Source: a virus (lineage: Duplodnaviria; Heunggongvirae; Uroviricota; Caudoviricetes). Taken from it: a DNA stretch of 64,000 nt. Under the pieces are notes generated by a model that worked only from the letters and a program-made list of their open reading frames with translations, ran no database searches and had not been told where the DNA came from. Location: IMG/VR virus record IMGVR_UViG_3300028534_000019, positions 31,091-95,090 of that record. The stretch is one strand, 5' to 3'. Within the stretch, counting starts at the first letter, position 1. Each line of letters starts with the position of its first letter. Below are positions 3,827 through 52,600 of the stretch, one piece after another. The position numbers were made by a program, and so were the translations under genes.

Positions 3827-4873
3827 ATGGCTATTATAGAACCATTAGAACAAAAATACTTCTTACTAGAAACCTCATCTAAAGACATAGGATACATTAA
3901 AAGTGATGATATATCTAAATCTTGTGATATATGTAATGAGGGTTCATCTTATGGTAGAAAACACCGACTTCATTTATACACTAAACCTACATATGATACA
4001 CCATCAATAGCGTGTTTTAATTGTGGTTATAAAGGTAATATGTATAGTTATCTTAGAGATTACCATCCTACTTTATTTGACCAATATAAAAAAGAAAAAA
4101 TGGGTAGTACCTTTAAAGAGTTAAAATTATCAAAAAATAAAAATAAAAACTCTAATAATGAAACAACAGAAGATATAAATTTAGATAATATTTTTAGTTC
4201 ACACAAAACAAAACACACACCAATATTAGGCGATTTACCAAAAAGTTTTAAGCCTTTATTAGAATTTGAAGAACCTATAAAATACTTAAAGAATAGAAAA
4301 ATAGAAAACTATGATAGATGGTATTTTTCACCAAAAGATAATAATATTGTATTTAATGGTGCTGAGGTAAGATTAAGTGAATATATTATTATACCATTCT
4401 ATAAAGAAGATAAAATATATGGTTTTCAAGCATTATCATACAAACAAAAAAGATTTTTTGTATTTTTATTAAAAGGTAATGATAGTTGGAAAGTTGAAAA
4501 TTGGTTTAATATAGATAGAGAGAAAAATATATATGTTTTTGAATCTGTTTATGATAGACTTTCATCAGGTTTAGATAATACTATTTCCCAAATGGGTGCT
4601 AGTTTATCAGTTGAAAGAATAGAAGAATTAAATAAAAATAAGCTAGTTTTTTGTTTGGATAATCAAAATATTGATGAAGCATCACAAAGAGAGTCTTTAA
4701 AATATGCTGAGAAAGGTTATAATGTTTTTATTTGGCCGACTAAGATACCAAAAAAATTTAAAGATACAAATGATTTACTAAAGGGTGGTGTACCAAAAGA
4801 AAAGATTAAAGAGATTATTGAAAATAATACCTTTAGTGGTACAGAAGCAATTTTGAGATTAAAAATGATATAA
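3827..4873 (+). CDS. 61: DNA primase (T4 gp61-like; zinc ribbon plus TOPRIM)
   Basis: CDICNEGSSYGRKHRLHLY...CFNCGYKGNMYSYLRDYHPTLFDQY parallels the T4 gp61 zinc-ribbon region as I recall it. The C-terminal part has acidic TOPRIM-like stretches (VFESVYD, CLDNQNIDEA). Confidence 0.8.
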   Translation: MAIIEPLEQKYFLLETSSKDIGYIKSDDISKSCDICNEGSSYGRKHRLHLYTKPTYDTPSIACFNCGYKGNMYSYLRDYHPTLFDQYKKEKMGSTFKELKLSKNKNKNSNNETTEDINLDNIFSSHKTKHTPILGDLPKSFKPLLEFEEPIKYLKNRKIENYDRWYFSPKDNNIVFNGAEVRLSEYIIIPFYKEDKIYGFQALSYKQKRFFVFLLKGNDSWKVENWFNIDREKNIYVFESVYDRLSSGLDNTISQMGASLSVERIEELNKNKLVFCLDNQNIDEASQRESLKYAEKGYNVFIWPTKIPKKFKDTNDLLKGGVPKEKIKEIIENNTFSGTEAILRLKMI

Positions 4874-4883
4874 AGGAATAATA

Positions 4884-5633
4884 ATGTATATACCAAGAAG
4901 AGAATTTGATGATGAACCAAAAATAATTATTTTTAGTGGTGCTGGATTGGATGCCCCATCAGGATTAAAAACTTTTAGGGGTTCTGATGGTTTATGGGAT
5001 AGCCACAAAATACAAGATATTTGTACTGAAAGTACTTGGAAACAAAATTTTGAAGAAGTTCATAATTTTTATAATGGTTTAAGAAATAAATTAGAAAAAG
5101 CACAACCAAATAAAGCACATTTAAAAATAAAAGAATTATATGAAAAGTACCCTGATAGTGTTCTAAATATTACAATGAATATATCAGACTTTTTTGAAAG
5201 GTTAGAAGTTCCAGTTCTTCATATTCACGGAGAACTTAAAAAAATGGAATGTTATGCTTGTGGTACTAAATGGGATATTGGGTATAAGCAGTGGGATATT
5301 GAAAAAGATAGGTGTCCTAAATGCAATAGTAGAAAAGGTGTGAAACCATCTATTGTATTTTTTGGTGGTCAAGCACCTATGTATAGCTACTTGTGGCGTG
5401 CTTTTGAGCATACTATGAATAAAGATACTATTGTGATTGTTATTGGTACTCAGGGTAATGTAGTGAATGTAGAAGAGAATTTAATAGGTACTCCTTGTAA
5501 GAAAATTCTTTGTAATATGGAAGCATCAGCAGATATTAATGTAAAAAAATGTGGTTTTGATAAGGTGTACTATGAAAGTATAGAAACAGCAATAGACAAA
5601 ATTATGGATGATATTGAAGAATGGAAAAAATAA
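4884..5633 (+). CDS. Sir2-family NAD-dependent deacylase (CobB-like sirtuin)
   Basis: FSGAGLDAPSGLKTFRG (GAGxS...FR), VLHIHG (catalytic His), Zn site CYAC...CPKC, and PSIVFFGG. Confidence 0.8.
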   Translation: MYIPRREFDDEPKIIIFSGAGLDAPSGLKTFRGSDGLWDSHKIQDICTESTWKQNFEEVHNFYNGLRNKLEKAQPNKAHLKIKELYEKYPDSVLNITMNISDFFERLEVPVLHIHGELKKMECYACGTKWDIGYKQWDIEKDRCPKCNSRKGVKPSIVFFGGQAPMYSYLWRAFEHTMNKDTIVIVIGTQGNVVNVEENLIGTPCKKILCNMEASADINVKKCGFDKVYYESIETAIDKIMDDIEEWKK

Positions 5634-6088
5634 AAATATTCACAAGTTACTATTCTAATATTAACAAAATCAGAGAGAATTATCCTGATTTTGTTTTAAT
5701 TTCAATTAGTGGTGGTTTGGAAAATAATATTATAACTTTAATAGATGATTGGGATAAAAGGTTAGCACCTAAAAAAGATTTCTTCTTAGAGTATAAAAAT
5801 TCAAAAGAAGGTTTACCACGAGAGATTAAATATGTAAAAGAATTTAATGATAAAGTTCTATATAAAGATAAAATAAAAATAATTATAAACTCTTGGTTAG
5901 AAAAATATCCAAACAAAACTATTGTAATGCTTTGTTATGAACATCCTAAAGATTTTTGTCATAGACAAATAGTAGCTAAAGAAATTGAAACTGTTTTTAA
6001 TGTTGATGTAAAAGAATTATTTTTTGAAAATTATGAAAGAATAGATTATAAAATGTTTCCTAAAGGCTTAGATGAAGATGAATGGTAA
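5621..6088 (+). CDS. DUF488-like protein
   Basis: VMLCYEHPKDFCHRQIVAKEI resembles the DUF488 C(x)E...CHR signature. Overlaps the Sir2 gene by 13 nt. Confidence 0.5.
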   Translation: MEKIKIFTSYYSNINKIRENYPDFVLISISGGLENNIITLIDDWDKRLAPKKDFFLEYKNSKEGLPREIKYVKEFNDKVLYKDKIKIIINSWLEKYPNKTIVMLCYEHPKDFCHRQIVAKEIETVFNVDVKELFFENYERIDYKMFPKGLDEDEW

Positions 6089-6165
6089 TTATTAATTTTT
6101 TATTTAATATTGTTTTAATCTAAATCATATTATAATTTCATCATATTTAAGGAAAAGGCTATAAT

Positions 6166-6639
6166 ATGAAAAAAGAATTAAAAATAGATATATTAGATAA
6201 TCTACAAAGAAATAGTGTTTGTGTTATTTTTAAACCAAGTGATAGTGTTTCACATATACTTATTTTGGAAGAATTAGTAAATAGAGTAGTATCAAGTGAA
6301 GTGATATTAAAAAGAGATACACTTGAGTATCTTAGAGATTCAGAAATAGAAATATATCCATTAGTTTATATGTCAAAAAATGATTTTGATGAATTACCTC
6401 AAAATGTCAAAGCAAGAGTTAGTTGTGTTGATGGTGAGATGTTATTTGAAAGTGTAGAAGATGATAGACAATTATCTAAAACAACCTTTTCTATACAAAT
6501 AGAAGATAAAGAATATACAAAAGATGAACTTTTAAAAGAAGTTGTTATGAGAATGAGTAATTTAGAAGATGGTACTTATGCTAGTACACCTGATGATTAT
6601 GATGACTTTTATAGTTCTTACAGTTTTAAAAAGATTTAA
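6166..6639 (+). CDS. Hypothetical acidic protein
   Basis: 157-codon ORF with AAGGAAAAGG upstream. Confidence 0.6.
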   Translation: MKKELKIDILDNLQRNSVCVIFKPSDSVSHILILEELVNRVVSSEVILKRDTLEYLRDSEIEIYPLVYMSKNDFDELPQNVKARVSCVDGEMLFESVEDDRQLSKTTFSIQIEDKEYTKDELLKEVVMRMSNLEDGTYASTPDDYDDFYSSYSFKKI

Positions 6640-6640
6640 T

Positions 6641-7157: not shown

Positions 7158-7166
7158 AGGTTAGAT

Positions 7167-8423: not shown

Positions 8424-8438
8424 TGATTAGGGGATTAT

Positions 8439-8795: not shown

Positions 8796-9316
8796 TGGTT
8801 TTAAATTTTTATGGCGGGCCGGGTATTGGTAAAAGTACAAAAGCATCAGAGTTATTTTTTAGATGTAAACAACAAAACTTACAGGTTGAATTAATACACG
8901 AGTTTGCTAAAGATATGGTTTATTCTCAATCTATGGAAATATTGAAAGACCAATATTATGTAGGTGCTAATCAACATCATAGGGTGTGGAGAGTTCATAA
9001 CTATTACTTACAACAAGGTTTTAAAGAGGATGAATTTCTTATAATAACTGATAGTCCTATTTTGTTGGGTGCGGCTTATACTGATGATGATAAATTAAGA
9101 GATTTTATTTTTGAAACTTCAGAAAGATATAATAATATTAATATTATGCTAACAAGAAAATTTAATTACCAAGAAGAGGGAAGAAACCAAGATTTAAAAG
9201 GTGCTATTGAGATTGATAAAAAAGTTTTAGATTTATTAAATAAAACTTCTTATATAGAAACAAATGATACAGATAAAATTTTATCTCTAATTAAGGAAAA
9301 AATGAGTACAATATAA
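8795..9316 (+). CDS. P-loop NTPase (kinase/ATPase-like)
   Basis: Walker A motif FYGGPGIGKST at the N-terminus, and IITDSP as a possible Walker B. Confidence 0.6.
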   Translation: MVLNFYGGPGIGKSTKASELFFRCKQQNLQVELIHEFAKDMVYSQSMEILKDQYYVGANQHHRVWRVHNYYLQQGFKEDEFLIITDSPILLGAAYTDDDKLRDFIFETSERYNNINIMLTRKFNYQEEGRNQDLKGAIEIDKKVLDLLNKTSYIETNDTDKILSLIKEKMSTI

Positions 9317-10411: not shown

Positions 10412-10999
10412 ATGAAAAAATTTAGTGAATATATGAGTGAAAAAGCACTTGTAGAAGAAATGGAAGATAAGATAGGTTTAATGTTATATATGGCAGAAAA
10501 AAGTGATATTATAGCTGAATCTTATGATTTTGAAAATTTAACAGAAAGCCAAAGAATTGTACTTGAAGAAGGTGTAAATGATTGGTTAAACAAAGTTGGT
10601 CTTAAATTACATAAAACAAAAGGTATTATTGATTATTTAGCTGATTTTACTAAAGGTACAGGTAAAGTTCTTATGTCAGCAATTAAAGGTGATAAAGAGG
10701 CTGTTAAAGAACAACTTAAAAATGTTAAAAAAGAAGAAGTTTTAGATTTCTTACTTAAATTAGATATGGCTACATTACATATTGTTACCGGCCCGATACA
10801 CTTAATTGATGCTGTTACAGGTTGGGATTTAATGGCTAATGTTAAAGCAGTAGCTAAAACAGCAACTGATAAACTTAAAGAATTTTATCAAGCAATGAAA
10901 AAAGTAAAAGAAACAATTACAACTGTTTTACAAGGTACTAAACAAAAGAAAATGTTACAATTAGCAACAAACTTAGAAACAACAATTCCTGCACCTTAG
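10412..10999 (+). CDS. Hypothetical protein
   Basis: 195-codon ORF with GGAGAAAG RBS. Confidence 0.6.
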   Translation: MKKFSEYMSEKALVEEMEDKIGLMLYMAEKSDIIAESYDFENLTESQRIVLEEGVNDWLNKVGLKLHKTKGIIDYLADFTKGTGKVLMSAIKGDKEAVKEQLKNVKKEEVLDFLLKLDMATLHIVTGPIHLIDAVTGWDLMANVKAVAKTATDKLKEFYQAMKKVKETITTVLQGTKQKKMLQLATNLETTIPAP

Positions 11000-12099: not shown

Positions 12100-13872
12100 A
12101 TGGAAGGAATATTTAATAAATTAAAAGAACATAATAAAGATGTTGTACTTAGTGATGAAGAGAAAAATAAAGTTTTAAGTGTTATAGATATAGAGAAAAA
12201 TAAAGAGGGTTTATATGTAGATGCCTTTGGTATGCCTATATCGCATAATGGGTTAAGAGATTTAAAAAAAGAGAAAACACAAATAAATCTTTCAGAAACA
12301 TTAATAAATGAAATTAAAACATCATATTTAGATTATTATTATTTTAGAGAAAATTATTGTAAAATTGTTACTAAAAAAGGTATTAAAAGACCTGAGCCAA
12401 GACCATACCAAAAAAGGTTAGAAGATGATTTAGTAACAGGTGAAGATGTTTTAGCATTTTGGCCGAGACAATCAGGAAAATCTGTAACTATTTCAACTTA
12501 TCTATTATGGAAAGCAATTACAACACCTAATATTAATATTGGTATAGCGGCAAATGTTCAAAAATTAGCTATGGAAGTATTAGACAAAATAAAAAATATA
12601 TTTTTGGAGTTACCTATTTGGATGAAGCCGGGTATAAAGGTTTGGAATAAAGGTTCTATTGAATTTGAAAATGGTACAAGAATTTTAACCTCAGCAACTA
12701 ATGGTGATGCTTTTAGGGGGTTTACTATTAATATATTATATGTTGATGAGGTTGCTTTTATTAGACATAGTGTGTGGGAAGAATTTGCTGATTCTGTTTT
12801 CCCTGCTCAAGAAGCACTTATGGAAAAACAAACTATTATGTCAAGTACGGCTGGTGGGCTTAATCATTGGTATCATTTAGTAGAGGGTGCTAGAAAGGGT
12901 AAAAATGGTTATAGAATAGCTGAAGCAAGTTGGAAAGAAGTTCCTAGATGGAAAAAAGATGGTACTCTTAAAACACCTGATGAATTTAAGGCTGAAATAA
13001 TAGCTAAAAATGGAGAGATGTTTTTCCAACAAAATTTTGGTAACTCTTTTTTAGGTAGTTCTAAAACTTTAATAGATTCACAAGCATTAAAAAATATTGA
13101 ACCTATGGATGATGATGAAATTTTGTTTGATAATGTTTTTAATGGACTAAGAATTTTTAAAGAGCCAAAACCTAATCATAATTATATAGTTACTTGTGAC
13201 CCCAAAAAAGAGGGTTTGGATAGTGCTGGATTACAAGTTGTTGATGTTACAAATTTACCTTTTGAACAAGTAGCATCAGCACAATTACACGAGAGTTATT
13301 TAACAATTCCTGGTAAATTAAATGATTTAGGGTTGTATTATAATAAGGCTATGATAGTATGTGAAAATAATGTAGCTGAGTCTATACCTAGTACTGTATA
13401 TTATAATTATGAATATGAGGGTGAAGTCTTTATAGAAAAAGATAGTAAGGGTCGCCCTAAAAAGGAAATGGGCATTAGGACAACTACCAAAACAAAAAGA
13501 TTAGGTTTAACTCTATTAAAGAAATTTGTAGAGAATGGAAACCTAATAATAAATGATACAAAAACATTAGATGAATTATTTAACTTCATTGAATATAAAG
13601 ATGGTATATATAAAGCAGAAGAGGGTTATCACGATGACCTTGTTATGTCATTAATGCTTGTTTTTGCTCCATTTTTAGATTTTAAAAACTTTGATGATTT
13701 TAGAGGTTTTGTTGATTATCTTGATAAAAAAGAAAAACAACAAGAAGAGAATGATAAAGAGATGGAAGAATTTATGGATTTAGGTTTTAGTTCTGATGAT
13801 GATTTGGAAGATGACGGGCCGTTTACTAAGGATATTTGGGGAAATAGAGATATGGTTGGTGGCTTCATATAA
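12100..13872 (+). CDS. 17: Terminase large subunit (T4 gp17-like)
   Basis: Walker A FWPRQSGKSVT. WNKGSIEFENGTRILTSATNGDAFRGFTINILYVDEVAFI parallels the T4 gp17 block, and the C-terminal nuclease region has YHDDLVMSL. The ATG at 12100 (after AAAGG) is preferred over 12055. Confidence 0.9.
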   Translation: MEGIFNKLKEHNKDVVLSDEEKNKVLSVIDIEKNKEGLYVDAFGMPISHNGLRDLKKEKTQINLSETLINEIKTSYLDYYYFRENYCKIVTKKGIKRPEPRPYQKRLEDDLVTGEDVLAFWPRQSGKSVTISTYLLWKAITTPNINIGIAANVQKLAMEVLDKIKNIFLELPIWMKPGIKVWNKGSIEFENGTRILTSATNGDAFRGFTINILYVDEVAFIRHSVWEEFADSVFPAQEALMEKQTIMSSTAGGLNHWYHLVEGARKGKNGYRIAEASWKEVPRWKKDGTLKTPDEFKAEIIAKNGEMFFQQNFGNSFLGSSKTLIDSQALKNIEPMDDDEILFDNVFNGLRIFKEPKPNHNYIVTCDPKKEGLDSAGLQVVDVTNLPFEQVASAQLHESYLTIPGKLNDLGLYYNKAMIVCENNVAESIPSTVYYNYEYEGEVFIEKDSKGRPKKEMGIRTTTKTKRLGLTLLKKFVENGNLIINDTKTLDELFNFIEYKDGIYKAEEGYHDDLVMSLMLVFAPFLDFKNFDDFRGFVDYLDKKEKQQEENDKEMEEFMDLGFSSDDDLEDDGPFTKDIWGNRDMVGGFI

Positions 13873-16601: not shown

Positions 16602-17051
16602 ATGATATATTCAAATAATAAAAAAGTAAAACACGACTATGAAATAATTGAAACATTTGAGGCAGGTGTTGTTTTGAGCGGTCCGCAAGTAAAATCAATT
16701 AGAAAAGGTTCTTTAAGCCTTAAAGGTTCTTATGTTAGTCTTGATGATGGTGTTTTATCATTAAAACAATACTCACTTGCTAGACCTGATTATTTGGATG
16801 CTTTTAGTTCTTTTGATGATAAACCAATAAAATTTTTACTCAAAAAAAGAGAGATTAAAAAATTACAAAAAAAGATTCAAGAAAAAGGTTTAACATTATC
16901 TATAACAAAAGTTTATCAACCTGAAAATACTAGATTTATTAAGGCTGAGTTAGTTCTTGTGAGAGGTAAAAAACTATATGATAAAAGAGAAGATTTAAAA
17001 AAGAAAACACAAGAAATGGATATGAAAAAGGCTATAAAATATGATAGATAA
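16602..17051 (+). CDS. smpB: SmpB (tmRNA-binding protein)
   Basis: NNKKVKHDYEIIETFEAGVVLSGPQVKSIRKGSLSLKGSYV matches the conserved SmpB N-terminal block (NKKA.HDY.I...EAGI.L.G.EVKS.R). Size is 149 aa with a basic C-terminal tail. Confidence 0.9.
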   Translation: MIYSNNKKVKHDYEIIETFEAGVVLSGPQVKSIRKGSLSLKGSYVSLDDGVLSLKQYSLARPDYLDAFSSFDDKPIKFLLKKREIKKLQKKIQEKGLTLSITKVYQPENTRFIKAELVLVRGKKLYDKREDLKKKTQEMDMKKAIKYDR

Positions 17052-17250: not shown

Positions 17251-18041
17251 TGTTAATAGTACCTGTTGGTTTGCCTGGTTCAGGAAAAACTGTTTTATCA
17301 AGAAAATTTAATACAGTTATAAATGCTGATGAATTGTTTAAGGATAATTATACATTAGATGATTTAATAAATTATATAAAAGAATATAATTATACAGTAA
17401 CAGATGTTTATTTGGATGGTTTATTTATTACAAGGAATTTAGTTAAGAAATTGATTGAAACTTTTGATTATTATATTAGATTAGTATATTTTAAACCTAA
17501 TATAGAAAATTGTATCTACAATGATTTATCAAGAAATAGAGAAAAAGATAGTGTTAATATAATTTATGGTTCTGATTTAAGTTTTATGAAAGAAAGTTAT
17601 TTTAGAAATAAAATAAGAGAAACAATGGAAGTATATAAGGCTGATTATGTAGAATATATAAAAGAAGAAAATAACTTTCAAAATTATATAGAAACACAAG
17701 AGTATGTCTTAGAAGGAAGTACATATGGTACTTGTTGGGATGAAGACGGCCCGTCTGAAACAACACCTGATGACCCATACCATTTTACTGATTTTACAGA
17801 ACTTGAAAAGATATTTAAAAAAATGAATATTCCTTATACAGAAGAAAATTATAATAAAATTGAAAGTGTTATAGAAGAAGAAGATAGAAGTGAGGGTGAT
17901 TATTATGGTGGTTATGCTTATAAAGAGGTTTATAGAGTTGAAGTTACATTATTAATAAAAGCAATACTAAAAGAGTTTTTTGGTATTGATAAAACAGATA
18001 TGGCATATATTAAAAAAGAATACCCTGAACTAATATTTTAA
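17250..18041 (+). CDS. P-loop kinase-like protein (polynucleotide-kinase-like N-terminus) with C-terminal YPELIF motif
   Basis: MLIVPVGLPGSGKT is a Walker A at the extreme N-terminus, as in T4 Pnk-type kinases. The ATG at 17250 overlaps the previous stop (TAATG). Ends ...IKKEYPELIF*. Confidence 0.55.
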   Translation: MLIVPVGLPGSGKTVLSRKFNTVINADELFKDNYTLDDLINYIKEYNYTVTDVYLDGLFITRNLVKKLIETFDYYIRLVYFKPNIENCIYNDLSRNREKDSVNIIYGSDLSFMKESYFRNKIRETMEVYKADYVEYIKEENNFQNYIETQEYVLEGSTYGTCWDEDGPSETTPDDPYHFTDFTELEKIFKKMNIPYTEENYNKIESVIEEEDRSEGDYYGGYAYKEVYRVEVTLLIKAILKEFFGIDKTDMAYIKKEYPELIF

Positions 18042-18639: not shown

Positions 18640-20490
18640 ATGGCAGTTATTGGTATAGATTTAGGAACGACAAATAGTGCTGTTTCAGTTTATGAAGTAG
18701 GGGAATTTAAAATTATTCCTAATGCTGAGGGTAAAAATACAACACCTAGTATTGTAGCATTTACAGATAAAGGGGATGTATTAGTAGGGGAATCAGCAAA
18801 AAGACAAGCAGTCACAAACCCTGAAAAAACTATTGAAGCAATTAAAAGAATTATGGGTATGCAATTTAATGAACCTAGATGTAAAGAGGCTCAAGAAAAA
18901 GTACAATATAAAATTGTAGATAAAAATGGTTTGGCCGCTGTTGATGTTGATGGTAAGATTTATACACCACAAGAAATTTCAGCTAAAATCCTTACAAAAC
19001 TAAAAGATGATGCAGAAGCATTTATTGGTAAAGAAGTTACAGATGCTGTAATTACAGTTCCAGCATACTTTAATGATGCTCAGAGAAAGGCGACACAAGA
19101 GGCAGGCGTTATTGCAGGGCTTAATGTACTAAGAATTATTAATGAACCTACTTCGGCCGCTCTTGCTTATGGTTTGGACAAAAAAGGTGAGGAAAATATT
19201 CTTGTTTATGATTTTGGTGGTGGTACTTTTGATGTATCTGTATTAGAAATTGGAGATGGTACTTTTGAAGTTCTTTCAACTGATGGTAATGCTTTCTTAG
19301 GTGGTAAAGACTTTGACCAAATTTTAGTTAATTATATTGCTGAATATTTTAAAGAGAAACAGGGTGTTGATTTAAGAAATGATAAAATGGCACTTCAAAG
19401 ATTATATGATGCTTCAGAAAATGCTAAAAAAGAGTTATCAAGTGTTGTAGAAACTGAAATTAACTTACCATTTATTACTATGACAGAAGCCGGCCCGCAG
19501 CATCTTGTTTTAAAAATTTCAAGAGGTAAATTTGAGGGGTTAGTACAAAATCTTGTAGATGAAACTATTGAACATATTACAACAGCATTACAAGACGCTG
19601 GTTTAAGTGTAGATGATATTAGTGAATTGATTATGGTTGGTGGCTCAACAAGAATACCTTTAGTACAAGAGGCAGTTTCAAAGTATTTTAAAGGTAAAAC
19701 TCTTAATAAATCTGTTAATCCTGATGAAGTTGTAGCCGCTGGTGCTTCAATTCAAGGTGGTGTATTAACAGGAGATGTAAAAGATGTTCTTCTTCTTGAT
19801 GTTACACCATTATCACTTGGTATTGAAACTATGGGTGGTATTGCTACTAAAATCATCCCAAAAGGTACAACTATTCCTGTTAAAAAATCAGAAATCTTTA
19901 GTACAGCAGTTGATAATCAACCAGCAGTTAGTATTGTAGTAGTACAAGGTGAAGCAAAATTAGCAGAAGATAATAAATCTTTAGGACAATTTAATCTTGA
20001 GGGTATAACACCAGCTAAAAAAGGTGTACCACAAATTGAAGTTAATTTTGATGTTGATTCTAATGGTGTTTTGAGTGTATCAGCTATTGATAAAGGAACA
20101 GGTAAAGAACAGAAAATAACAATTACAGGTTCGACAGGTTTAAGTGAAGAAGAAATTAGAAAGATGATTGATGATGCTGAAAAACAAAATCAAGAAAAGG
20201 CTGAAAAAATTAAAGCAATTGAAGCAAAAAATGAATTGGATGCTACTCTTTCAAGAATTAAAAACTTTAATGATGAAGAAAAAAATGAAGTGCTATCAGC
20301 TAAAATTTCTGATGTTGAAGAATATGTAAAAGAAGATAGAACAGCAGAAGAAATTAGAAAAATTAGAGATGAACTTGAAGAAGTTTATTTAAAAGCATTT
20401 GAAGAGAAATCAAAAAGAAATGAAGGTGCTGAGGTAAAAGAAAGCACTGAAAATAATGATGATGTTATTGATGCTGAAATTGAAGAATAA
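18640..20490 (+). CDS. dnaK: Hsp70 chaperone DnaK (canonical bacterial type)
   Basis: [69 protein letters not shown], and an acidic tail [10 protein letters not shown]. Confidence 0.95.
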
Positions 20491-20501: not shown

Positions 20502-21305
20502 TTGAAAAAATTATATAAAATTCTTGAAATTGAAGAAACTTCTACAACAGTAGAAATAAAAAAAGCATATAGAAAATTAGCTAAAAAATACCACCCTGAT
20601 GTTTGTAAAGAAGAGGGTGGTGAAGATAAGTTTAAAGAAATTAATAGAGCATATGAAGTTCTAAGCAATCCACAAGAAAAACAAAAGTATGATAGATTTG
20701 GTGATGAAATGTATGAAAAAATGGGGTCAGGTGGTGGAAGACCTAATCCAAATGCTGATGAGTTTGCAGAAGCAATGGCATCATTTTTCAACCAAAAGGG
20801 AAATCCCCGACAAGGTAATCCTTTTGGTATGGGTGGTAATCCTTTTATTCATACAACAATTCAAGCATATATTTCGATAGAAGATTTATTTAAAGGTACT
20901 TCTATACAATTACAAGATGGTACTAAAGTAAAAATACCACCTAGAACAATACCGGGTAGTAGGGTAAGAGTTAAAGGCAAAGGTATGTCAGATGGTAAAA
21001 ATACAGGAGATTTATTTATTATCATAACACCAAAAAATAATGATAAAGAATTTGTTGAGAATGATACTATTATAAAGATTATCAAAATTGATTTAGTTAG
21101 TATGATTTTTGGAAATGAAATAAAATATAATCATTATGGTAAAGATTTAATTGTTACTGTTCCAAAAAATACAAAGCCCGGTGACTTTGTACAAATTCCC
21201 AATCAGGGCTTAGGTACTCAGGGTTCATTAATTTTACATTTAGATTTAGAATTACCAAAAGCAGAAGATTTAGATGAAGAAAAAGTAAAAGAATTATTTA
21301 ATTAA
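20502..21305 (+). CDS. J-domain co-chaperone (DnaJ/CbpA-like, no zinc-finger domain)
   Basis: TTG start after AAGAGG. J domain is YKILEIEETSTTVEIKKAYRKLAKKYHPDV with HPD, followed by a G/F-rich linker and a DnaJ C-terminal beta domain. No CxxCxGxG repeats. Confidence 0.85.
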   Translation: MKKLYKILEIEETSTTVEIKKAYRKLAKKYHPDVCKEEGGEDKFKEINRAYEVLSNPQEKQKYDRFGDEMYEKMGSGGGRPNPNADEFAEAMASFFNQKGNPRQGNPFGMGGNPFIHTTIQAYISIEDLFKGTSIQLQDGTKVKIPPRTIPGSRVRVKGKGMSDGKNTGDLFIIITPKNNDKEFVENDTIIKIIKIDLVSMIFGNEIKYNHYGKDLIVTVPKNTKPGDFVQIPNQGLGTQGSLILHLDLELPKAEDLDEEKVKELFN

Positions 21306-26664: not shown

Positions 26665-27576
26665 ATGGAAGAACAAATAGCGATTGATTTAGGCTATTCA
26701 ACATCAAAAGTTGCTTATGCTGATAAAATAGCAAAATTCCCAACTGCTGTTTCTTTTGCTACTGATGTAGGTACATCATATGGTGAAGGGAATATTTATG
26801 ACTTTGAGGGAGATAAGTATTATGTGGGTAGTGAAGCCGCTGATGCTGAGGCTTTTACAACTATGGATTTTAAATTTTTATATAAATTTGCTCCTCTTCT
26901 TATCTATCATATTTTAAGTAAATTTGATAAAGCAGAACTTGAAAAACCTATTGTTGTAAAAACAGGATTGGCAATTGTTGATTGGCATAAAAAAGATGAT
27001 TTTATTGAAAGAATTTCAAAAATTGAAGTGAATGGGCAAACTGTTGAAACAACACCCATTCTTATTCCTCAAGGTGCTGGATGTGCTGTTGATTGGGTTT
27101 CATCAGATAATGATGGAGAATGGCCGGACAATCTTACAGTAGTTGATATTGGTTATAATACTATTAACCTTATATCATTTTTAGAGGGTAAACCAATTAG
27201 AAAAAATATGAAAAGTTACCCAGGACACGGTGTTTCTAGTATAATTAAACCTTTTACTAGTTATCTTGAAAATACTTTTGGTACAACATTTTCAGAACAA
27301 GAAGCAATTAAATTTTTTGTTAAAGGTACTTTTAAATATAATGGTGAAGACCAACCTAAAGTATCAGAAAAAATTACAGAATTAAAATCACAATTTGTTA
27401 AAAAAATGTTTCAATCTGTTTTAGTTTCTGATAAAAAACTTCTTGCTATGTCAGATGTAGTGCTTATTGCTGGTGGTGGTGCTTATTTACTTCAAGATAT
27501 TCCATTCCCGCCAAATGTTGAGTTTGTTGATTCTCCTTATGAGTTCAGTAATACTCGTGGTTATTTAATTTCATAA
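26665..27576 (+). CDS. Actin-like ATPase (ParM/Alp family)
   Basis: Actin-fold phosphate and adenosine motifs in order: IAIDLGYSTSKVAY, VVDIGYNTINL, VLIAGGGAYLL, and a C-terminal NTRGYLI (compare ParM ...VNGMYLIG). Confidence 0.7.
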   Translation: MEEQIAIDLGYSTSKVAYADKIAKFPTAVSFATDVGTSYGEGNIYDFEGDKYYVGSEAADAEAFTTMDFKFLYKFAPLLIYHILSKFDKAELEKPIVVKTGLAIVDWHKKDDFIERISKIEVNGQTVETTPILIPQGAGCAVDWVSSDNDGEWPDNLTVVDIGYNTINLISFLEGKPIRKNMKSYPGHGVSSIIKPFTSYLENTFGTTFSEQEAIKFFVKGTFKYNGEDQPKVSEKITELKSQFVKKMFQSVLVSDKKLLAMSDVVLIAGGGAYLLQDIPFPPNVEFVDSPYEFSNTRGYLIS

Positions 27577-43497: not shown

Positions 43498-43989
43498 GTG
43501 AAAAAATATGATAATGTGTTAATGATTAATGCTAAATCTTGGGCAAAACAGAGTTACTGTAATAGAAAAAAAGTAGGTGCTGTTTTAGCCAAAGATGGTA
43601 GGATTTTAGCAACAGGTTATAATGGTACTATCTCAGGTACTGAAAATTGTTGTGAAGAAAAATGTGATGTTTGTAATGGTACAGGTAGGTCATATTTAGA
43701 TGATGAAGAATATTGTCCTAGATGTAATGGTGGTGGTAAAATTACAAATGATTTTACATTACACGCTGAACAAAATATAATTACATTTTGTGCTAAAGAA
43801 GGAATACCAACAAAAGATACTACGATTTACATTACTCTAAGCCCTTGTAAAACTTGTGCTAAATTAATTGCTCAAAGTGGTATTAAAAGAGTTGTGTATA
43901 ATGAACAATATAGAGATACATCAGGTGTTGATTTTCTTAAAAATCTTGGAATACAATGTGAACAACATAATACAAAAGGAAAAGAATGA
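43498..43989 (+). CDS. dCMP deaminase (ComEB/Cd family) with an extra Cys-rich insert
   Basis: GYNG...HAEQNII (HAE) and LSPCKTCAKLI (PCxxC). The insert is CCEEKCDVCNGTGRSYLDDEEYCPRCNGGGK. GTG start. Confidence 0.85.
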   Translation: MKKYDNVLMINAKSWAKQSYCNRKKVGAVLAKDGRILATGYNGTISGTENCCEEKCDVCNGTGRSYLDDEEYCPRCNGGGKITNDFTLHAEQNIITFCAKEGIPTKDTTIYITLSPCKTCAKLIAQSGIKRVVYNEQYRDTSGVDFLKNLGIQCEQHNTKGKE

Positions 43990-46289: not shown

Positions 46290-46814
46290 TTACATTTTAA
46301 TCCAGTGAGTAAATGCAAAATCAACAGTAAACTCAGTTACCATATCATTACTTTCATCAGCCATATCAATAGAACTGATATTAGTCGGCCAAAGGTTTCT
46401 AAATTGATAAGTAAGTTTTACACTATTATCTCTTGTATCTAATTGTTGAATTTGTGCTGTTTCAGTCATATAAGAAGCATTAGTAGTAACTTTTCTTTTA
46501 TGATTTTCCATATCATCAATAAATACCAACCAATCATCAAATAATTTTCTTAATTCGTGGTCTTGTGTGTTGTAAAATGTTAAAGACCAAGTATTTTCAT
46601 AAGCCGCATCACCTGCAATTATAAGTTTTCTACCTTGTGTCCAAACCTCAATTTGCCCAATAGATTTAGCTGGTATCGGCCCGCCCTTACAAAGAGTATC
46701 TATCTTTTTATCATCTTTTGGTCCGACAGGAGCCGCCAACATAACTCTATATTTATTTGCTCTTGCACCTAAACCAAGAGTACTTTTTAATTCTTGTACT
46801 TTACTAGAAGCCAT
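46290..46814 (-). CDS. 19: Tail tube protein (T4 gp19-like), paralogue 1
   Basis: GARANKYRV, FDDWLVF and NLWPTNISSIDMADESNDMVTEFTVDFAFTHW parallel T4 gp19 ...GLWPTNVGELQLDWDSNNEIQTFEVTLALDYWE. Confidence 0.85.
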   Translation of the reverse strand: MASSKVQELKSTLGLGARANKYRVMLAAPVGPKDDKKIDTLCKGGPIPAKSIGQIEVWTQGRKLIIAGDAAYENTWSLTFYNTQDHELRKLFDDWLVFIDDMENHKRKVTTNASYMTETAQIQQLDTRDNSVKLTYQFRNLWPTNISSIDMADESNDMVTEFTVDFAFTHWIKM

Positions 46815-46886: not shown

Positions 46887-47399
46887 TCAATCCCAATGTG
46901 AATAATTAAATGTAACAGTAAACTCTAACAACCCTTCTGTATCATCACTATAAGTAGATTCAGATAATGCTTTAGGATATAAATCATATATTGTATATGT
47001 AGCCATTGGTGAGTTATCTTTTGTGCTTAATTGTTGTAAAACAGCATCAGTCATATAACTTGGTGCTGATGAAGCACTTCTATTATTTGTATTAAAATCA
47101 TCTATAAAATTCATCCAAGCTAAAAATGCTTTTCTTAATGTATGCTGTTCTGTATCAACAAATGTTAAATCCCAAGTTCCTGTAAAAAGTGTTTCACCAG
47201 CGATAGTTAATTTTTTACCTTGTACATATACTTCTACATCAGCAAATTCTTTACCAGGAATATTAGCACCTTTAACTAATGTATTAACTATATTATTACC
47301 CGGCCCGCCACCTTTTGAATTAAGAATTAGTTTATATCTATTTGACCTAGCACCTATACCAAGTGTATTTTTTAGATTTTGAATTGTACTATTTGCCAT
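46887..47399 (-). CDS. 19: Tail tube protein (gp19-like), paralogue 2
   Basis: Clearly alignable to paralogue 1 (MANSTIQNLKNTLGIGARSNRYKL..., ...DLYPKALSESTYSDDTEGLLEFTVTFNYSHWD). Confidence 0.85.
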   Translation of the reverse strand: MANSTIQNLKNTLGIGARSNRYKLILNSKGGGPGNNIVNTLVKGANIPGKEFADVEVYVQGKKLTIAGETLFTGTWDLTFVDTEQHTLRKAFLAWMNFIDDFNTNNRSASSAPSYMTDAVLQQLSTKDNSPMATYTIYDLYPKALSESTYSDDTEGLLEFTVTFNYSHWD

Positions 47400-47410: not shown

Positions 47411-47923
47411 TTAAAATGTTTCAATATATGATGCTTTGGCTGTTATACTAAATTCAGCTATTGAAGCACCAGCACTATTATCTAAAGTCGGCCCGCCTAC
47501 TGTAACTAAAATACAATCTTTGAATTTAATAATATCTTGAAAGGTATTAATATCAAAGTCAGTGGCAGTTTGAACTAATATATCAAACCTTTGGTTTTTA
47601 GGGTATTCTCTTGAAAATTTTTGTGAAGCACTTGACCACATTCTATATAGTGTAAAATTTTCTAAATCTTTCATAGTAACAGTAACTTGAAAATTTTCTA
47701 ATCTACCCACTGCAAATCTCCATTCCTCAGCTACCCATTCCTCAATAGGTGATGAATTAACCTCAGCTAACTGTATATTAGTTATAGCGGCCGTCAGTGT
47801 ATCAGGGTCAACTGTAATAGCACCAGCGGCTGTTCCACCTGTTGGTAATATCATAACCTTAAATTTAGAGGGGTCTTGCCATCTAATAGACTTAGCAAGT
47901 TGTATAGGTGCTGATAAAGCCAT
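47411..47923 (-). CDS. Divergent tail-tube-fold protein, paralogue 3 (tube or tube-initiator-like)
   Basis: Same size and position as the tube genes. Starts MALSAP..., using the third in-frame ATG, which is preceded by GGAG. Shares a weak FKV...W...F.VTV pattern. Confidence 0.5.
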   Translation of the reverse strand: MALSAPIQLAKSIRWQDPSKFKVMILPTGGTAAGAITVDPDTLTAAITNIQLAEVNSSPIEEWVAEEWRFAVGRLENFQVTVTMKDLENFTLYRMWSSASQKFSREYPKNQRFDILVQTATDFDINTFQDIIKFKDCILVTVGGPTLDNSAGASIAEFSITAKASYIETF

Positions 47924-47937
47924 AAGCATCTCCATAT

Positions 47938-48819: not shown

Positions 48820-48822
48820 AAT

Positions 48823-49618: not shown

Positions 49619-49654
49619 AATAAACTATAAAATCTCTTACTATATTAAGTTATC

Positions 49655-49662
49655 TATAAATA
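49655..49662 (+). promoter_or_regulatory. T4-type late promoter box TATAAATA
   Basis: CTATAAATACTTTTAA lies 31 nt upstream of the tape measure ATG. The same 16-mer occurs at 62436-62451. Confidence 0.5.
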
Positions 49663-49692
49663 CTTTTAAGATAAAAATAGTCAGGAGATTTT

Positions 49693-52600
49693 ATGAGTGC
49701 TAACAAAAGAACTAATAAAAGAAAAACTTTTAAAAAACCTACATTAATAACTTTACCAAAAATAAAAGGTAGTGATTATAGAAATAAAGATAATTATGAA
49801 GAACCTAATGGTTTTAAAGAAAAAAAATCTAAACCATCATCTTTATTTGCTAAAATGGCTCAAGATTTAGCTAAGGTTAAAAAAGAGAATGAAGAATTAA
49901 ATAATAAACTTGAAAAAATTTATGAAGTTCAAAAAAACTCTAATGCTCAGATAATCAAAAACCAACAACAAAGTATAGATATACAGCACGACCAAATGGA
50001 ACAACAAAGAGAGGCTGAATATAAAAAAGAACATTCTTATGCTAAAAAAGTAAAAGAAAAAATAGTTTATATTAAAGAAAAAACTAAAGATTCTTTATCA
50101 AATGCTGGTGGAAAAATCAAGAATGGTTTTAATAAAGTAAAACAGAAAACATCAGGTTTTTTTGATTTTATAAAGAAAGCAGCGGGAATAGCATTATTTT
50201 TAAAACTTTTTTGGCCGGTGATTAAAAAGAAAGTGATACCTTATGTTAAAGATACACTAATACCTCAAATTAAAGATTTTTTAAATAATAAAGTAATACC
50301 ATTTTTTAAAGATACTGTAATACCCGGCTTAGAGAAATTTTTCAAAGATACACTTTGGCCGATGATAAAAAACAATTTTGGTGATATTTTAAAAGGGTTA
50401 GGTATAACAGCATTTTTGTTAAATCCTGTTAAATTTATAACAACAGCAATAAAATTGGCTTTTAAAACTACTTTTTTTGGAATTAAACAAATAGTAAAAT
50501 TATTACCTAAACTAGCAGGTTTTTTAAAATCACCAGCAAAATATTTAGCAACAAAAGGGTTAGATTTAGCTAAACAAGGTGCTACTAAGGTTTCTGATTT
50601 AGCTAAACAAGGTGCTACTAAGGTTTCTGATTTAGCTAAACAAGGTGCTACTAAGGTTTCTGATTTAGCTAGAGATGGAGTTGATGCTGTTTCTGATTTT
50701 ACAAAAAATGATAGTATAAGTGATATGGCTGAAAATGGTTATGATAAATTAAAAGACTCTAAAGGAAGTGGTGGTTTATTAGAAAAAATTAATAAAAAAA
50801 TTGATTCTATGAAAGAAAAAATAACAAAAATTTCAGGGTCTTTGATAGATAAAGGAATTGGTTTAGCTAAAAAATTACCATCAAGTTTTGGTGCCGCACT
50901 GAAAATGTTAAAACCACTAGCAAAACTTATTCCATTTTTAGGAACAGCATTAATGGTGTGGGATGTTATAGATTTATTTTTCCCTAATTTAACAAGTAAA
51001 CTCACAGAATTTTTTAGTTGGAAGAATATTAAAGAAATGGCTTCAAGTATATGGGAAAAAGTTAAAGAAGTATTTGGTAGTGTTTCTAAATGGATAAGTG
51101 ATAAATTTAGTGGTATAATTTCAAGTGTAAGAAAAATGGTAGGTAAATTATTTTTAATGAGTCCTATGACTGCATTGTTACCTGATTCTATTAAGAAAAA
51201 AGTATATAATTTTATTGTAGGAGATGATAAAGAAGCTAAAAAAGAAGAAAAATCTTCAGCTATGTTTAAAAAAGGTTATGCTAATGATGATTGGGGTGAT
51301 AATAGTATAAATGAACAAAAGATTAAAAAAGATTTAAAAACAGGTAAAATTAATATTAAAGATTTAGAAGCATTGTTACAATATGGGAATTTAGATGAAG
51401 ATGAACAAGATAAATTAAAGAAAATAATTTCTTCTAATACTAAAACTAAAAAAACTAAAAAAACTTTAGGTAATGTTTCATCTATTAGTAATACTACTGA
51501 TGTTAAAAAACCTCTAACAAAAGAACAAAAACAAGATAATTATATTAAATCTATGGATGCCCAAATTGGAGCATTTACAAAAACAAGAGATAAAATTAAA
51601 ACAGCACTTGATAATAAAGATTTAAGTCCTAAGAAAAGAAAAGGTTTAGAGAAAGCATTATCTTATTATGATACACTTATCAAGAAGAAACAAGAAAAGA
51701 AACAAAGTTTAGTAAAACATAAAAAACATAAAAAACCTACAAGAACATCAGAATCATCATATATGATGGCTGATGGGAAAGGTGGGAAAGTTCCAATAAC
51801 TAAAGAGCAACACGACAGAATGGATGCCATTCAAAATAAAATTTCTGTTGCTTTTGATGGTGGAAACAGTGAAGAAATAGATAAATTACTTAAAGAACAA
51901 GAAGATTTAAGAGCAACAATAATTAAAGAAGGATTTAAACCTTCACAAAGTATAAGTATTTCTAATACTTCTAGTAGTTCTAGTACAACAAATAATTCTT
52001 TTGGTAATGTTAGTAATGTTAGTAATGTAGGTAATACTTTTTTATCAGCAAAACCTAATACTGCTCAAAGTGTAGCAAATCCAAGTGAGTCTGAAACACC
52101 AAAAACAGATGGTTTTTTTACTTCTCAAATGAAACCTAGTTTTGATACAAAACCAAAAGATGTAAGTACAAGTGGTTTTAATCAATCACAAAGTAATGAT
52201 TTAGATGATAAAGAAAGAAAACAATTAAAAATGGAAAAAATACCTGCTAAAAAAATATTCAAATTAACAGGTAGTGCTTCAAGTGGTGGTTTTGAAAAAA
52301 TGAATAAATCATTACAACATAATGTTAAATTATTTGGTATGGAATATGCTGAAAAAACAGGAGAAAAACTAACTATTAATTCAGCATATAGAAGTGTTAA
52401 ATTACAAAAAAAATTATTTGAAAATAAGAAAAAAGAAGTAAGAAAAAAACACCCTGAATGGTCAGATAGTCAAGTTCTTAGGGAAACAAGAAGATGGGTA
52501 GCACCTCCAGGGAGAAGCGCACACAATTCAGGTTTAGCAATTGATATAGGTTATCAAAATAGAAAATCTCCATCAATGGATAAAGCAGATAGATTAGGTT

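What the first reader, a model, noticed from the sequence alone, without database searches (positions are those of the whole stretch)
4733..50361. Every Trp-Pro dipeptide uses TGG-CCG: context-dependent use of the rare CCG codon after GG
All six Trp-Pro dipeptides I found are encoded TGGCCG. They lie at 4733 (primase), 12460 (terminase), 27121 (ParM-like), 46386 on the minus strand (tube 1), and 50212 and 50356 (tape measure).

Pro is otherwise overwhelmingly CCT or CCA in this window. I noticed only about 14 other CCG codons, several of them in CCG-GGT (Pro-Gly). Together with the Gly-Pro result, this shows that CCG is chosen when the upstream bases are GG. It creates GGCCG or GGNCCG words. 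This could be the same phenomenon as the CGGNCCG motif or a separate codon-pair effect.
Basis: seen in the sequence. Interest (0 to 1): 0.45.

Follow-up and report, generated by a model that had tools for sequence, protein, structure and literature searches.

The report
Trp-Pro codon rule from restriction-site avoidance
In this phage every Trp-Pro is written TGG-CCG because the genome tolerates the DNA words GGCC and GGNCC only when a CpG flanks them, one of many codon distortions that look like escape from bacterial restriction enzymes, not a translation effect.

Summary
All six Trp-Pro dipeptides are TGG-CCG, although CCG is only 6% of Pro codons (P about 5e-8, which survives correction over all 3588 codon pairs).

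It is not a codon-pair effect in the translational sense. It is one face of a DNA-word rule:
- All 18 GGCC and all 13 GGNCC in the 64 kb carry a CpG flank.
- Wherever the code allows it, both flanks are CpG, giving CGGNCCG 11 times. This is the case at 30 of 31 free positions.
- CpG is otherwise five-fold depleted in the window.

The window is purged of many short words: GATC 0 against 104 expected, CATG 0/66, CTRYAG 0/46, ACGT 0/23, WGGCCW 0/10. Nearly all the strongest codon-pair biases map to such purges.

Related phages do not share the rule. At the same terminase residues they write TGG-CCT and GAT-GGT-CCT, and each relative avoids a different set of words.

The motif is not created where the protein does not force GG(N)CC. 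This argues for damage control at unavoidable restriction targets.

Why CpG specifically is unsettled. Either the enzymes are sensitive to flanking bases, or a CpG-directed DNA modification shields the sites. The second reading has weak support: CpG sites are polymorphism hotspots.

The parts
4733..4738 (+). TGGCCG, Trp-Pro in primase-like gene 3827-4873
   Evidence: primase assignment
12460..12465 (+). TGGCCG, Trp-Pro in large terminase. Orthologous codons in relatives L002 and L003 are TGG CCT
27121..27126 (+). TGGCCG, Trp-Pro in actin-like (ParM/ALP) gene 26665-27576
46386..46391 (-). TGGCCG (CGGCCA on the + strand), Trp-Pro in tail-tube paralogue 46290-46814. The paralogous position in 46887-47399 is Tyr-Pro, TAT CCT
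50212..50217 (+). TGGCCG, Trp-Pro in the 1419-aa tape-measure-like gene (motif W-P-V-I-K)
50356..50361 (+). TGGCCG, Trp-Pro in the same gene (motif W-P-M-I-K, apparently an internal repeat of the previous site)
18932..18937 (+). TGGCCG in another frame (TTG GCC GCT, Leu-Ala-Ala) in the DnaK-like gene
19154..19159 (+). CGGCCG (TCG GCC GCT, Ser-Ala-Ala) in the DnaK-like gene. GGCC flanked by CpG on both sides
47788..47793 (-). CGGCCG (ACG GCC GCT, Thr-Ala-Ala) in tube paralogue 47411-47935
8815..8821 (+). CGGGCCG, GGC GGG CCG (Gly-Gly-Pro)
10789..10795 (+). CGGCCCG, ACC GGC CCG (Thr-Gly-Pro)
13815..13821 (+). CGGGCCG, GAC GGG CCG (Asp-Gly-Pro) in terminase. Relative L002 has GAT GGT CCT at the same motif
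16679..16685 (+). CGGTCCG, AGC GGT CCG (Ser-Gly-Pro) in the SmpB-like gene
17747..17753 (+). CGGCCCG, GAC GGC CCG (Asp-Gly-Pro)
19491..19497 (+). CGGCCCG, GCC GGC CCG (Ala-Gly-Pro) in the DnaK-like gene
41232..41238 (+). CGGACCG, ACC GGA CCG (Thr-Gly-Pro) in the second DnaK-like gene
46677..46683 (-). CGGGCCG, GGC GGG CCG in tube paralogue A
47301..47307 (-). CGGGCCG, GGC GGG CCG in tube paralogue B, at a column not homologous to the site in A
47489..47495 (-). CGGGCCG, GGC GGG CCG in tube paralogue C, at a non-homologous column
57390..57396 (+). CGGGCCG, GGC GGG CCG in baseplate-region gene 56365-57435
46720..46725 (-). CGGACC (GTC GGA CCA, Val-Gly-Pro). The only Gly-Pro without CCG. It keeps the 5' CpG flank
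56240..56245 (+). GGTCCG (AAA GGT CCG, Lys-Gly-Pro). A 5' C is impossible because Lys has no C-ending codon

Best explanation
The TGG-CCG rule is a by-product of selection on DNA words, most likely by host restriction enzymes, and not on translation.

SHOWN:
- This phage genome has been purged, through synonymous codon choice, of many short and mostly palindromic words.
- Trp-Pro (TGG CCN) cannot avoid GGCC, and Gly-Pro (GGN CCN) cannot avoid GGNCC.
- At exactly these unavoidable sites every free neighbouring synonymous position is set so that the site is flanked by CpG (C before, G after).
- For Trp-Pro the 5' neighbour is the fixed T of TGG, so the only free position is the Pro third base, and it is always G.
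- Put another way, TGG CCA and TGG CCT would be WGGCCW (the HaeI specificity, 0 found against 10 expected). TGG CCC would add a GGCCC, which is a GGNCC word (the Sau96I specificity). CCG is the only harmless choice.

INFERRED:
- The agents of selection are restriction or similar defence nucleases of an unidentified host.
- Because both flanks are fixed wherever possible, one flank alone is not enough. Each strand counts.
- That fits one of two mechanisms. Either (i) the nucleases have half-site recognition that a CpG flank spoils, or (ii) a CpG-directed DNA modification (for example 5-methylcytosine on the last C of GG(N)CC on each strand) shields sites that cannot be removed.
- I cannot decide between (i) and (ii).
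For: A null that keeps proteins and codon usage (synonymous shuffles) gives these observed against expected counts:
- GATC 0 vs 104, CATG 0 vs 66, CTRYAG 0 vs 46, ACGT 0 vs 23.
- AAGCTT 0 vs 18, TCTAGA 0 vs 19.5, GAATTC 0 vs 13.6.
- TGCA 21 vs 157, GCWGC 2 vs 23, WGGCCW 0 vs 10.1.

In the full codon-pair table, TGG-CCG (4.7e-8) and GGG-CCG (1.6e-11) sit among pairs that each remove such a word:
- GAC-CCT and GAC-CAA remove GATC.
- CAC-GAC removes CATG.
- AAA-GCA removes AGCT, and AAT-GCT removes TGCA.
- GCC-GCT removes GCWGC.

GGCC (18 observed vs 14.6 expected) and GGNCC (13 vs 15.2) are not depleted, but their flanks are redistributed:
- Unflanked GGCC 0 vs 12.8, and unflanked GGNCC 0 vs 13.6.
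- Doubly flanked CGGNCCG 11 vs about 0.

The base before Gly-Pro is C in 12 of 12 possible cases (P = 2e-15). Elsewhere CCG:CCC is 15:14, but it is 18:0 at W-P and G-P sites. Unflanked sites are also absent in other frames (0 vs 5.5, P = 0.012).

The motif is not created where it is not forced: 0 of 50 Arg-frame opportunities, 3 of 157 xxG-GCC-Gxx, 0 of 14 Arg-Pro.

Orthologous terminase sites differ only at synonymous positions. The window has TGG CCG and GAC GGG CCG. Relatives have TGG CCT and GAT GGT CCT. Paralogous tube position: Trp-Pro is TGG CCG and Tyr-Pro is TAT CCT.

Relatives and Campylobacter phage CP220 (27.6% GC) use CCT, CCA or CCC after TGG. They have unflanked GGCC, and each avoids a different set of words.

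Synonymous removal of restriction sites is an established cause of local codon bias (review PMC8410138).
Against: - The host and its restriction enzymes are unknown, so no cognate enzyme has been shown.
- No single known specificity explains a requirement for CpG on both flanks. HaeI plus Sau96I explains Trp-Pro but not CGGNCCG.
- Gly-Pro also prefers GGG or GGC in the middle (9 of 13). This creates an extra GGCC and needs a further assumption, namely avoidance of GGWCC (4 observed vs 12.4 expected).
- Two CGGCCG sites (TCG GCC GCT and ACG GCC GCT) use rare codons that create a GGCC that was avoidable.
- No DNA methyltransferase or base-modification gene was found among about 50 ORFs scanned in the window.
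- About 4.8 kb just upstream of the window in another assembly of the same phage carries GATC, CATG, ACGT and unflanked GGCC.
Confidence: 0.8

Rival explanations
1. Translational codon-pair effect: with tRNA-Trp or tRNA-Gly in the ribosomal P site, the CCG codon (or a CGG-anticodon tRNA-Pro) is decoded better, so CCG is selected after TGG or GGN.
For: All sites are in frame, and the effect is tied to two dipeptides.
Against: - The constraint reaches the third base of the codon before Gly (12 of 12 C) and the Gly third base. This makes a DNA palindrome.
- It holds in other frames.
- It is absent after the other G-ending contexts AG and TG.
- It is absent from close relatives at orthologous residues and from CP220.
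- There are no tRNA genes in the window.
- Almost all other strong codon-pair biases are explained by DNA words.
Confidence: 0.03
2. Positive selection for a functional DNA motif: CGG(N)CCG or GGCCG is a binding, modification, nicking or packaging site that the phage needs. Trp-Pro and Gly-Pro are simply the cheapest places to encode it.
For: CGGNCCG occurs 11 times against about 0.3 expected, and CGGCC 20 against 2. Two CGGCCG sites are built with rare TCG and ACG codons.
Against: - The motif is never made where GG(N)CC is not already forced: 0 of 50, 3 of 157 and 0 of 14 opportunities.
- There are none in intergenic DNA.
- Conversion of essentially every forced site (30 of 31 free positions) is what avoidance of a harmful word predicts. 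It is not what a dose of beneficial sites predicts.
- The sites have no regular spacing or strand orientation.
Confidence: 0.07
3. Neighbour-dependent mutation or relic GC: G+C-rich patches resist the A+T-biased mutation pressure, or are leftovers of recently acquired G+C-richer genes, so rare G/C-ending codons cluster.
For: Several sites lie in DnaK-like genes that are rich in CpG. Rare codons do cluster here (GGC GGG CCG).
Against: - The effect stops exactly at the 7-bp word. The next synonymous positions are ordinary A/T.
- After GG it is 12 of 12, against 0 of 13 after TG.
- Relatives have A/T at the same positions, so the G/C states are derived.
- The three tube-paralogue sites are at non-homologous positions.
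- CpG is a mutational hotspot, not a cold spot, in this population.
Confidence: 0.04
4. Sequencing or assembly artefact at GGC-type motifs.
For: Illumina chemistry has known error contexts after GG(C) (from general knowledge, not tested here).
Against: Assemblies made separately from other samples or pipelines (Logan SRR8439170, ENA ERZ27262685) give identical sequence at these sites. Such errors would not respect reading frame and protein sequence on both flanks.
Confidence: 0.01

Closest known systems
Restriction-site (short palindrome) avoidance in phage genomes through synonymous substitutions (Sharp 1986; Gelfand & Koonin 1997; Rocha 2001; Rusinov 2018, as cited in review PMC8410138)
   Same: Short words typical of Type II sites are absent against a codon-preserving null. 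Removal is synonymous. The pattern differs between related phages, as expected for host-specific pressure.
   Different: Here the words GGCC and GGNCC are not depleted, because Trp-Pro and Gly-Pro force them. Instead their flanks are rewritten to CpG on both sides. I did not find this kind of flank compensation at unavoidable sites described in three literature searches.
Enzyme specificities HaeI (WGGCCW), HaeIII (GGCC), Sau96I (GGNCC), AvaII (GGWCC), TseI (GCWGC), as listed in REBASE/NEB (from general knowledge)
   Same: WGGCCW is 0 against 10.1 expected, GGWCC 4 against 12.4, GCWGC 2 against 23. HaeI-type plus Sau96I-type avoidance leaves CCG as the only Pro codon after TGG.
   Different: None of these specificities requires non-CpG flanks. 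They do not predict C before and G after every Gly-Pro site. No cognate enzyme has been identified for this phage's host.
CpG-specific methyltransferases of Mollicutes (M.SssI, M.MpeI) and the CpG under-representation linked to them (PMC9465063, citing Wojciechowski 2013)
   Same: Extreme CpG depletion (observed/expected 0.18). CpG<->TpG/CpA transitions are over-represented among polymorphisms. According to supplier tables (general knowledge), a methylated C in an overlapping CpG blocks several GG(N)CC-type enzymes.
   Different: That paper states that prokaryotic CpG methyltransferases have been described only in Mollicutes. This phage reads TGA as stop and encodes an endolysin, so a Mycoplasma-type or Spiroplasma-type host that reads TGA as Trp is unlikely. 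No methyltransferase gene was found in the window. Methylation was not measured.
Translational codon-pair bias (Gutman & Hatfield type)
   Same: It shows up as a very strong deviation in a codon-pair table.
   Different: The signal is symmetric on the DNA, extends beyond the codon pair, is specific to this lineage, and is explained word by word at the DNA level.

Membership tests
Restriction-site avoidance by synonymous codon choice | Short (4-6 bp, mostly palindromic) words depleted relative to a null that keeps protein sequence and codon usage | tested here: met
   GATC 0/104, CATG 0/66, CTRYAG 0/46, ACGT 0/23, TGCA 21/157, WGGCCW 0/10.1
Restriction-site avoidance by synonymous codon choice | Depletion achieved through synonymous changes, visible as codon-pair distortions and as synonymous differences from orthologues | tested here: met
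   Codon-pair table. Terminase has TGG CCG against TGG CCT, and GAC GGG CCG against GAT GGT CCT
Restriction-site avoidance by synonymous codon choice | Pattern is specific to lineage or host, and not shared by relatives of similar base composition | tested here: met
   L002-L008, L013 and CP220 lack the rule and avoid other words
Restriction-site avoidance by synonymous codon choice | Host encodes enzymes that cut the avoided words | not testable with these tools
   Host unknown. The only hint is that one relative (L013) is binned in a Cloacimonadota MAG
Restriction-site avoidance by synonymous codon choice | The constrained word matches a plain recognition sequence | tested here: inconclusive
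   WGGCCW plus GGNCC explains Trp-Pro. The two-sided CpG requirement at Gly-Pro (12/12 and 12/13) matches no known specificity
Translational codon-pair bias | Effect confined to the two adjacent codons in frame | tested here: not met
   It extends to the third base of codon -1 and to other frames
Translational codon-pair bias | Matching tRNA supply (for example a phage tRNA-Pro reading CCG) | tested here: not met
   No tRNA genes in the window, only a tmRNA. Host tRNAs cannot be tested
Shielding by overlapping CpG-directed DNA modification | CpG under-represented, with excess TpG/CpA | tested here: met
   Odds ratios: CpG 0.18, TG 1.16, CA 1.11
Shielding by overlapping CpG-directed DNA modification | CpG sites hypermutable by transition | tested here: inconclusive
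   Of 15 isolated differences between assemblies, 5 are CpG<->TpG/CpA transitions. Three of them have the CpG in the window (P = 7e-5). The sample is small
Shielding by overlapping CpG-directed DNA modification | A CpG-specific (or CCG-specific) methyltransferase or other modifying enzyme in phage or host | tested here: not met
   None among about 50 ORFs of the window. 36 kb of the phage and the host remain unseen
Shielding by overlapping CpG-directed DNA modification | Modified bases actually present at CpG in virion DNA | not testable with these tools
   Needs bisulfite, nanopore or SMRT data
Positively selected functional DNA motif | Motif created wherever coding allows, and also found outside genes | tested here: not met
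   0/50, 3/157 and 0/14 opportunities used. None intergenic

The most novel reading that the evidence does not exclude
The phage DNA carries a CpG-directed (or CCG-directed) modification, made by the phage or by a conserved host enzyme. The phage exploits it by writing a CpG onto each flank of every restriction target it cannot remove synonymously (GGCC in Trp-Pro, GGNCC in Gly-Pro). The last C of the site is then modified on both strands. This would be a shielding strategy by overlapping modification, and it would imply CpG methylation outside the Mollicutes.
Probability: 0.3. Interest if true: 0.7.

Novelty: new variant of a known kind. Interest (0 to 1): 0.42.

Why it matters
The result shows that an extreme codon-pair bias in a phage can be entirely a DNA-word effect. 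That is a caution for codon-pair analyses and for recoding phage genes.

It also exposes a rule that plain site avoidance does not predict. Where a target word is forced by the protein, selection acts on its flanks, here always towards CpG and on both strands. If that reflects an overlapping protective modification, it would be a new anti-restriction tactic. It could be read directly from sequence and used to infer the defence repertoire and DNA modification of uncultured phage-host pairs. If it reflects flank-sensitive nucleases, it predicts their specificity (roughly, no cutting of CGG(N)CC).

Tried and rejected
- **Close relatives for an evolutionary test.** None were found in IMG/VR, in INPHARED (terminase at most 41% identical) or in JGI metagenome contigs. 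Only short metagenomic contigs were available.
- **Host identification through the phage DnaK.** This gave uninformative MAG hits, plus one related phage contig binned as Cloacimonadota.
- **A single known enzyme for the flank rule.**
  - EcoO109I-type RGGNCCY would allow CCA, or a T before the site, and neither is seen.
  - EaeI-type YGGCCR is present 9 times, so it is not avoided.
  - CviJI-type RGCY fails because AGCC is not depleted.
- **CpG as a universal shield of all residual sites.**
  - Residual GCWGC (2/2), GAGAC (2/2) and GGNNCC (4/4) are CpG-flanked, but some of these reuse the same CpGs or follow from the Ala-Ala rule.
  - The residual GAGCT sites are TGAGCTA, with no CpG.
- **A diffuse local-GC effect.** Rejected because neighbouring synonymous positions beyond the 7-mer are ordinary A/T.
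- **7-deazaguanine genes.** They are present next to the terminase of relative L003 but have no homologues in the window.
- **Met-Gln/Met-His as an analogous unavoidable TGCA.** Too few cases to test.
- **More polymorphism data.** The last look-ups returned only identical Logan contigs.

Full report
**The observation.** The window is 26.2% G+C. I defined 90 non-overlapping ORFs covering 93% of it. TGGCCG occurs seven times. The site given as 46386 is CGGCCA on the + strand and reads TGG CCG in the minus-strand gene 46290-46814. The seventh, at 18932, is TTG GCC GCT in another frame.

There are no other Trp-Pro dipeptides. Pro codons are CCT 283, CCA 219, CCC 14 and CCG 33. Six out of six therefore has a probability of 1.5e-8 to 4.7e-8. 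That remains significant after correction for all 3588 codon pairs tested.

**What the rule really is.** CCG follows a GG dinucleotide in 12 of 12 cases, but AG in only 2 of 16 and TG in 0 of 13. Gly-Pro uses CCG in 12 of 13 cases. Seen as DNA words:
- All 18 GGCC and all 13 GGNCC in the window have a C immediately 5' or a G immediately 3'.
- Eleven of the 13 GGNCC are the palindrome CGGNCCG.
- This happens in a genome where CpG is at 0.18 of expectation.

Against synonymous shuffles that keep every protein and the codon usage, GGCC (18 vs 14.6) and GGNCC (13 vs 15.2) are not depleted. Their flanks are redistributed instead: unflanked 0 vs 12.8 and 0 vs 13.6, and doubly flanked GGNCC 11 vs about 0.

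The base before the Gly codon is C in 12 of the 12 Gly-Pro sites where the preceding amino acid has a C-ending codon (P = 2e-15). The thirteenth follows Lys, which has none. Elsewhere CCG and CCC are equally common (15:14), but at these sites the count is 18:0. The Gly codon itself is GGG or GGC in 9 of 13 cases, against an 11% baseline.

So 30 of the 31 free flanking positions are set to make a CpG. In Trp-Pro the 5' neighbour is the fixed T of TGG, which leaves only the Pro third base, hence CCG every time. Unflanked sites are also missing in reading frames where they could arise (0 vs 5.5, P = 0.012).

**The genomic setting.** The same shuffle test shows a genome stripped of short words:

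| Word | Observed | Expected |
|---|---|---|
| GATC | 0 | 104 |
| CATG | 0 | 66 |
| CTRYAG | 0 | 46 |
| ACGT | 0 | 23 |
| AAGCTT | 0 | 18 |
| TCTAGA | 0 | 19.5 |
| GAATTC | 0 | 13.6 |
| ATGCAT | 0 | 13.6 |
| CAGCTG | 0 | 9.5 |
| WGGCCW | 0 | 10.1 |
| TGCA | 21 | 157 |
| GCWGC | 2 | 23 |
| CCAGA | 2 | 54 |
| GGWCC | 4 | 12.4 |

- GAC-CCT and GAC-CAA replace GAT-C.. and so avoid GATC.
- CAC-GAC avoids CATG.
- AAA-GCA avoids AGCT, and AAT-GCT avoids TGCA.
- GCC-GCT and GCG-GCA at Ala-Ala avoid GCWGC.
- CCT-GAT avoids CCAGA.
- CCG/CCC-GGT at Pro-Gly avoids CCWGG.

TGG-CCG, GGG-CCG and GGC-CCG belong to this list. Synonymous removal of restriction sites is an established cause of local codon bias in phages (review PMC8410138).

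**Comparison with relatives.** The phage is a distant T4-like myovirus. Its terminase is at most 41% identical to those of cultured phages, the nearest being Vibrio and Campylobacter phages. Metagenomic relatives found through the terminase do not share the rule:
- L002 (73% identical terminase) and L003 write the orthologous Phe-Trp-Pro as TGG CCT.
- L002 writes the orthologous Asp-Gly-Pro as GAT GGT CCT, where the window has GAC GGG CCG. That is three synonymous differences in three consecutive codons.
- Each relative avoids a different set of words. L007, for example, has GTAC 0 vs 62 and CCGG 0 vs 14.
- Campylobacter phage CP220, with nearly the same base composition (27.6% G+C), has Trp-Pro as CCA or CCT, and 20 of its 20 GGCC are unflanked.

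Within the window, the three GGC GGG CCG sites of the tail-tube paralogues lie at non-homologous positions. Where one paralogue has Leu-Trp-Pro (CTT TGG CCG), another has Leu-Tyr-Pro (TTA TAT CCT).

These comparisons exclude a family-wide or composition-driven effect. They show that the G/C states are derived.

**Mechanism.** A translational explanation fails for four reasons:
- The constraint is symmetric on the DNA and reaches the codon before Gly.
- It holds outside the reading frame.
- It is lineage-specific.
- There is no tRNA gene in the window.

Positive selection for CGG(N)CCG as a functional site is unlikely, because the motif is never built where the protein does not already force GG(N)CC. 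The counts are 0 of 50 opportunities in the Arg-containing frames, 3 of 157 for xxG-GCC-Gxx, and 0 of 14 Arg-Pro. None lies between genes.

The best reading is damage control at unavoidable targets. For Trp-Pro alone, two known specificities would suffice (general knowledge of REBASE entries). TGG CCA and TGG CCT are WGGCCW, the HaeI site. TGG CCC adds GGCCC, a Sau96I-type GGNCC word.

These specificities do not explain why Gly-Pro sites carry CpG on both sides. A palindromic site would be broken by one flank. Both flanks are kept against strong A+T pressure, so each strand matters. Two sub-models remain:
- nucleases whose half-site recognition is spoiled by a CpG flank;
- a CpG-directed modification that marks the last C of GG(N)CC on each strand.

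For the second model there is indirect support. CpG is depleted to 0.18, with mild TpG/CpA excess. Among 15 isolated differences between this window and other assemblies of the same phage, five are CpG<->TpG/CpA transitions, three of them with the CpG in the window (P = 7e-5).

Against it:
- No methyltransferase was found among about 50 ORFs scanned.
- CpG methyltransferases are so far described only in Mollicutes (PMC9465063).
- CpG flanks are not a universal feature of residual sites of other avoided words.

I put the general explanation (defence-driven selection on DNA words) at about 0.8, and the modification-shield version at about 0.3.

**Loose ends.**
- The preference for GGG or GGC in Gly-Pro creates an extra GGCC. 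It needs a separate pressure against GGWCC.
- Two CGGCCG sites (19154 and 47788) are made with rare TCG and ACG codons although GGCC was avoidable there.
- In another assembly of the same phage (99.94% identical over 12.4 kb), the 4.8 kb just upstream of the window start carries GATC, CATG, ACGT, unflanked GGCC, and GGA CCA / GGA CCT. It is either a recently acquired module or an assembly chimera. If real, it shows that the purge reflects evolutionary history and not the translation machinery.

**Verdict.** The finding is real, highly significant, and the same phenomenon as the CGGNCCG motif. Its cause is of a known kind, restriction-site avoidance through synonymous codon choice. The twist is unusual and, as far as I could find, undescribed: forced sites are compensated by CpG on both flanks.

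Noticed in passing
window 1-64000: Complete absence of GATC, CATG, ACGT, CTRYAG, AAGCTT, TCTAGA, GAATTC, ATGCAT and CAGCTG. Near-absence of TGCA, GCWGC, CCAGA and GAGAC against a codon-preserving null. This is one of the most thoroughly purged phage sequences I have seen, and it implies a host with many Type II systems.
   Followed up: partly
window, all 82 AGCT sites: Every AGCT is TAGCT or AGCTA. TAGCTA (28 vs 27) and CAGCTA (36 vs 28) are at expectation. RAGCTA is depleted about 3- to 7-fold. All V-AGCT-B forms are absent (0 vs 91). This flank rule is formally parallel to the GGCC one but uses T/A flanks.
   Followed up: partly
window, e.g. 11403, 18936, 19737, 22628, 26838, 29027, 32224, 47827, 54251: Ala-Ala is written GCC GCT (11 times against 0.7 expected) or GCG GCN. 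This avoids GCWGC. Most GCC and GCG codons of the window occur in this context.
   Followed up: partly
window 4231, 12243, 41451 (also 10959, 29618): Differences between assemblies of the same phage are enriched for CpG<->TpG/CpA transitions (5 of 15 isolated SNPs). This suggests that CpG is hypermutable in this population.
   Followed up: partly
L011:1-4800 (upstream of window position 1 in ENA contig k141_205395): A segment with 3 GATC, 3 CATG, 4 ACGT, 7 TGCA, unflanked GGCC, and Gly-Pro written GGA CCA / GGA CCT. It includes two minus-strand genes (one of 1018 aa with a weak carbohydrate-binding hit) and a short Gp23-like gene. It looks foreign to the rest of the genome, or the assembly is chimeric.
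   Followed up: partly
window 41520-41701: A dense cluster of 30 differences in 180 bp between the window and ENA contig k141_205395, at the 3' end of the second DnaK-like gene and close to the end of that contig. It is a recombination tract or a strain variant.
   Followed up: no
window 39452-39772 and 16602-17051: The phage encodes a tmRNA (tag ANNTDYTGNTVLSA) and an SmpB-like protein, that is, a complete trans-translation pair.
   Followed up: no
window 18640-20490, 39844-41706, 20502-21305: Two DnaK/Hsp70 genes and a DnaJ gene are encoded by the phage. The first DnaK carries an unusual share of the window's CpGs (11 of 192).
   Followed up: no
window 4884-5633, 5621-6088, 26665-27576, 43498-43989, 28941-29846: Sir2-family protein, DUF488, actin-like ParM/ALP protein, dCMP deaminase and ThyX. 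No DNA methyltransferase or base-hypermodification gene was seen in the window. The 7-deazaguanine genes next to the terminase of relative L003 are absent here.
   Followed up: partly
L013 (JAMOPB010000327.1): A 9.7-kb contig syntenic with window 13.9-21.2 kb (ClpP ... DnaK, DnaJ; DnaK 66% identical) is binned in a Candidatus Cloacimonadota MAG. This is the only hint about the host range of this phage group.
   Followed up: no
window 50190-50384: The two Trp-Pro sites of the tape-measure-like gene sit in a repeated peptide motif, [FL]-W-P-[VM]-I-K, 144 bp apart. They may not be independent in origin.
   Followed up: no
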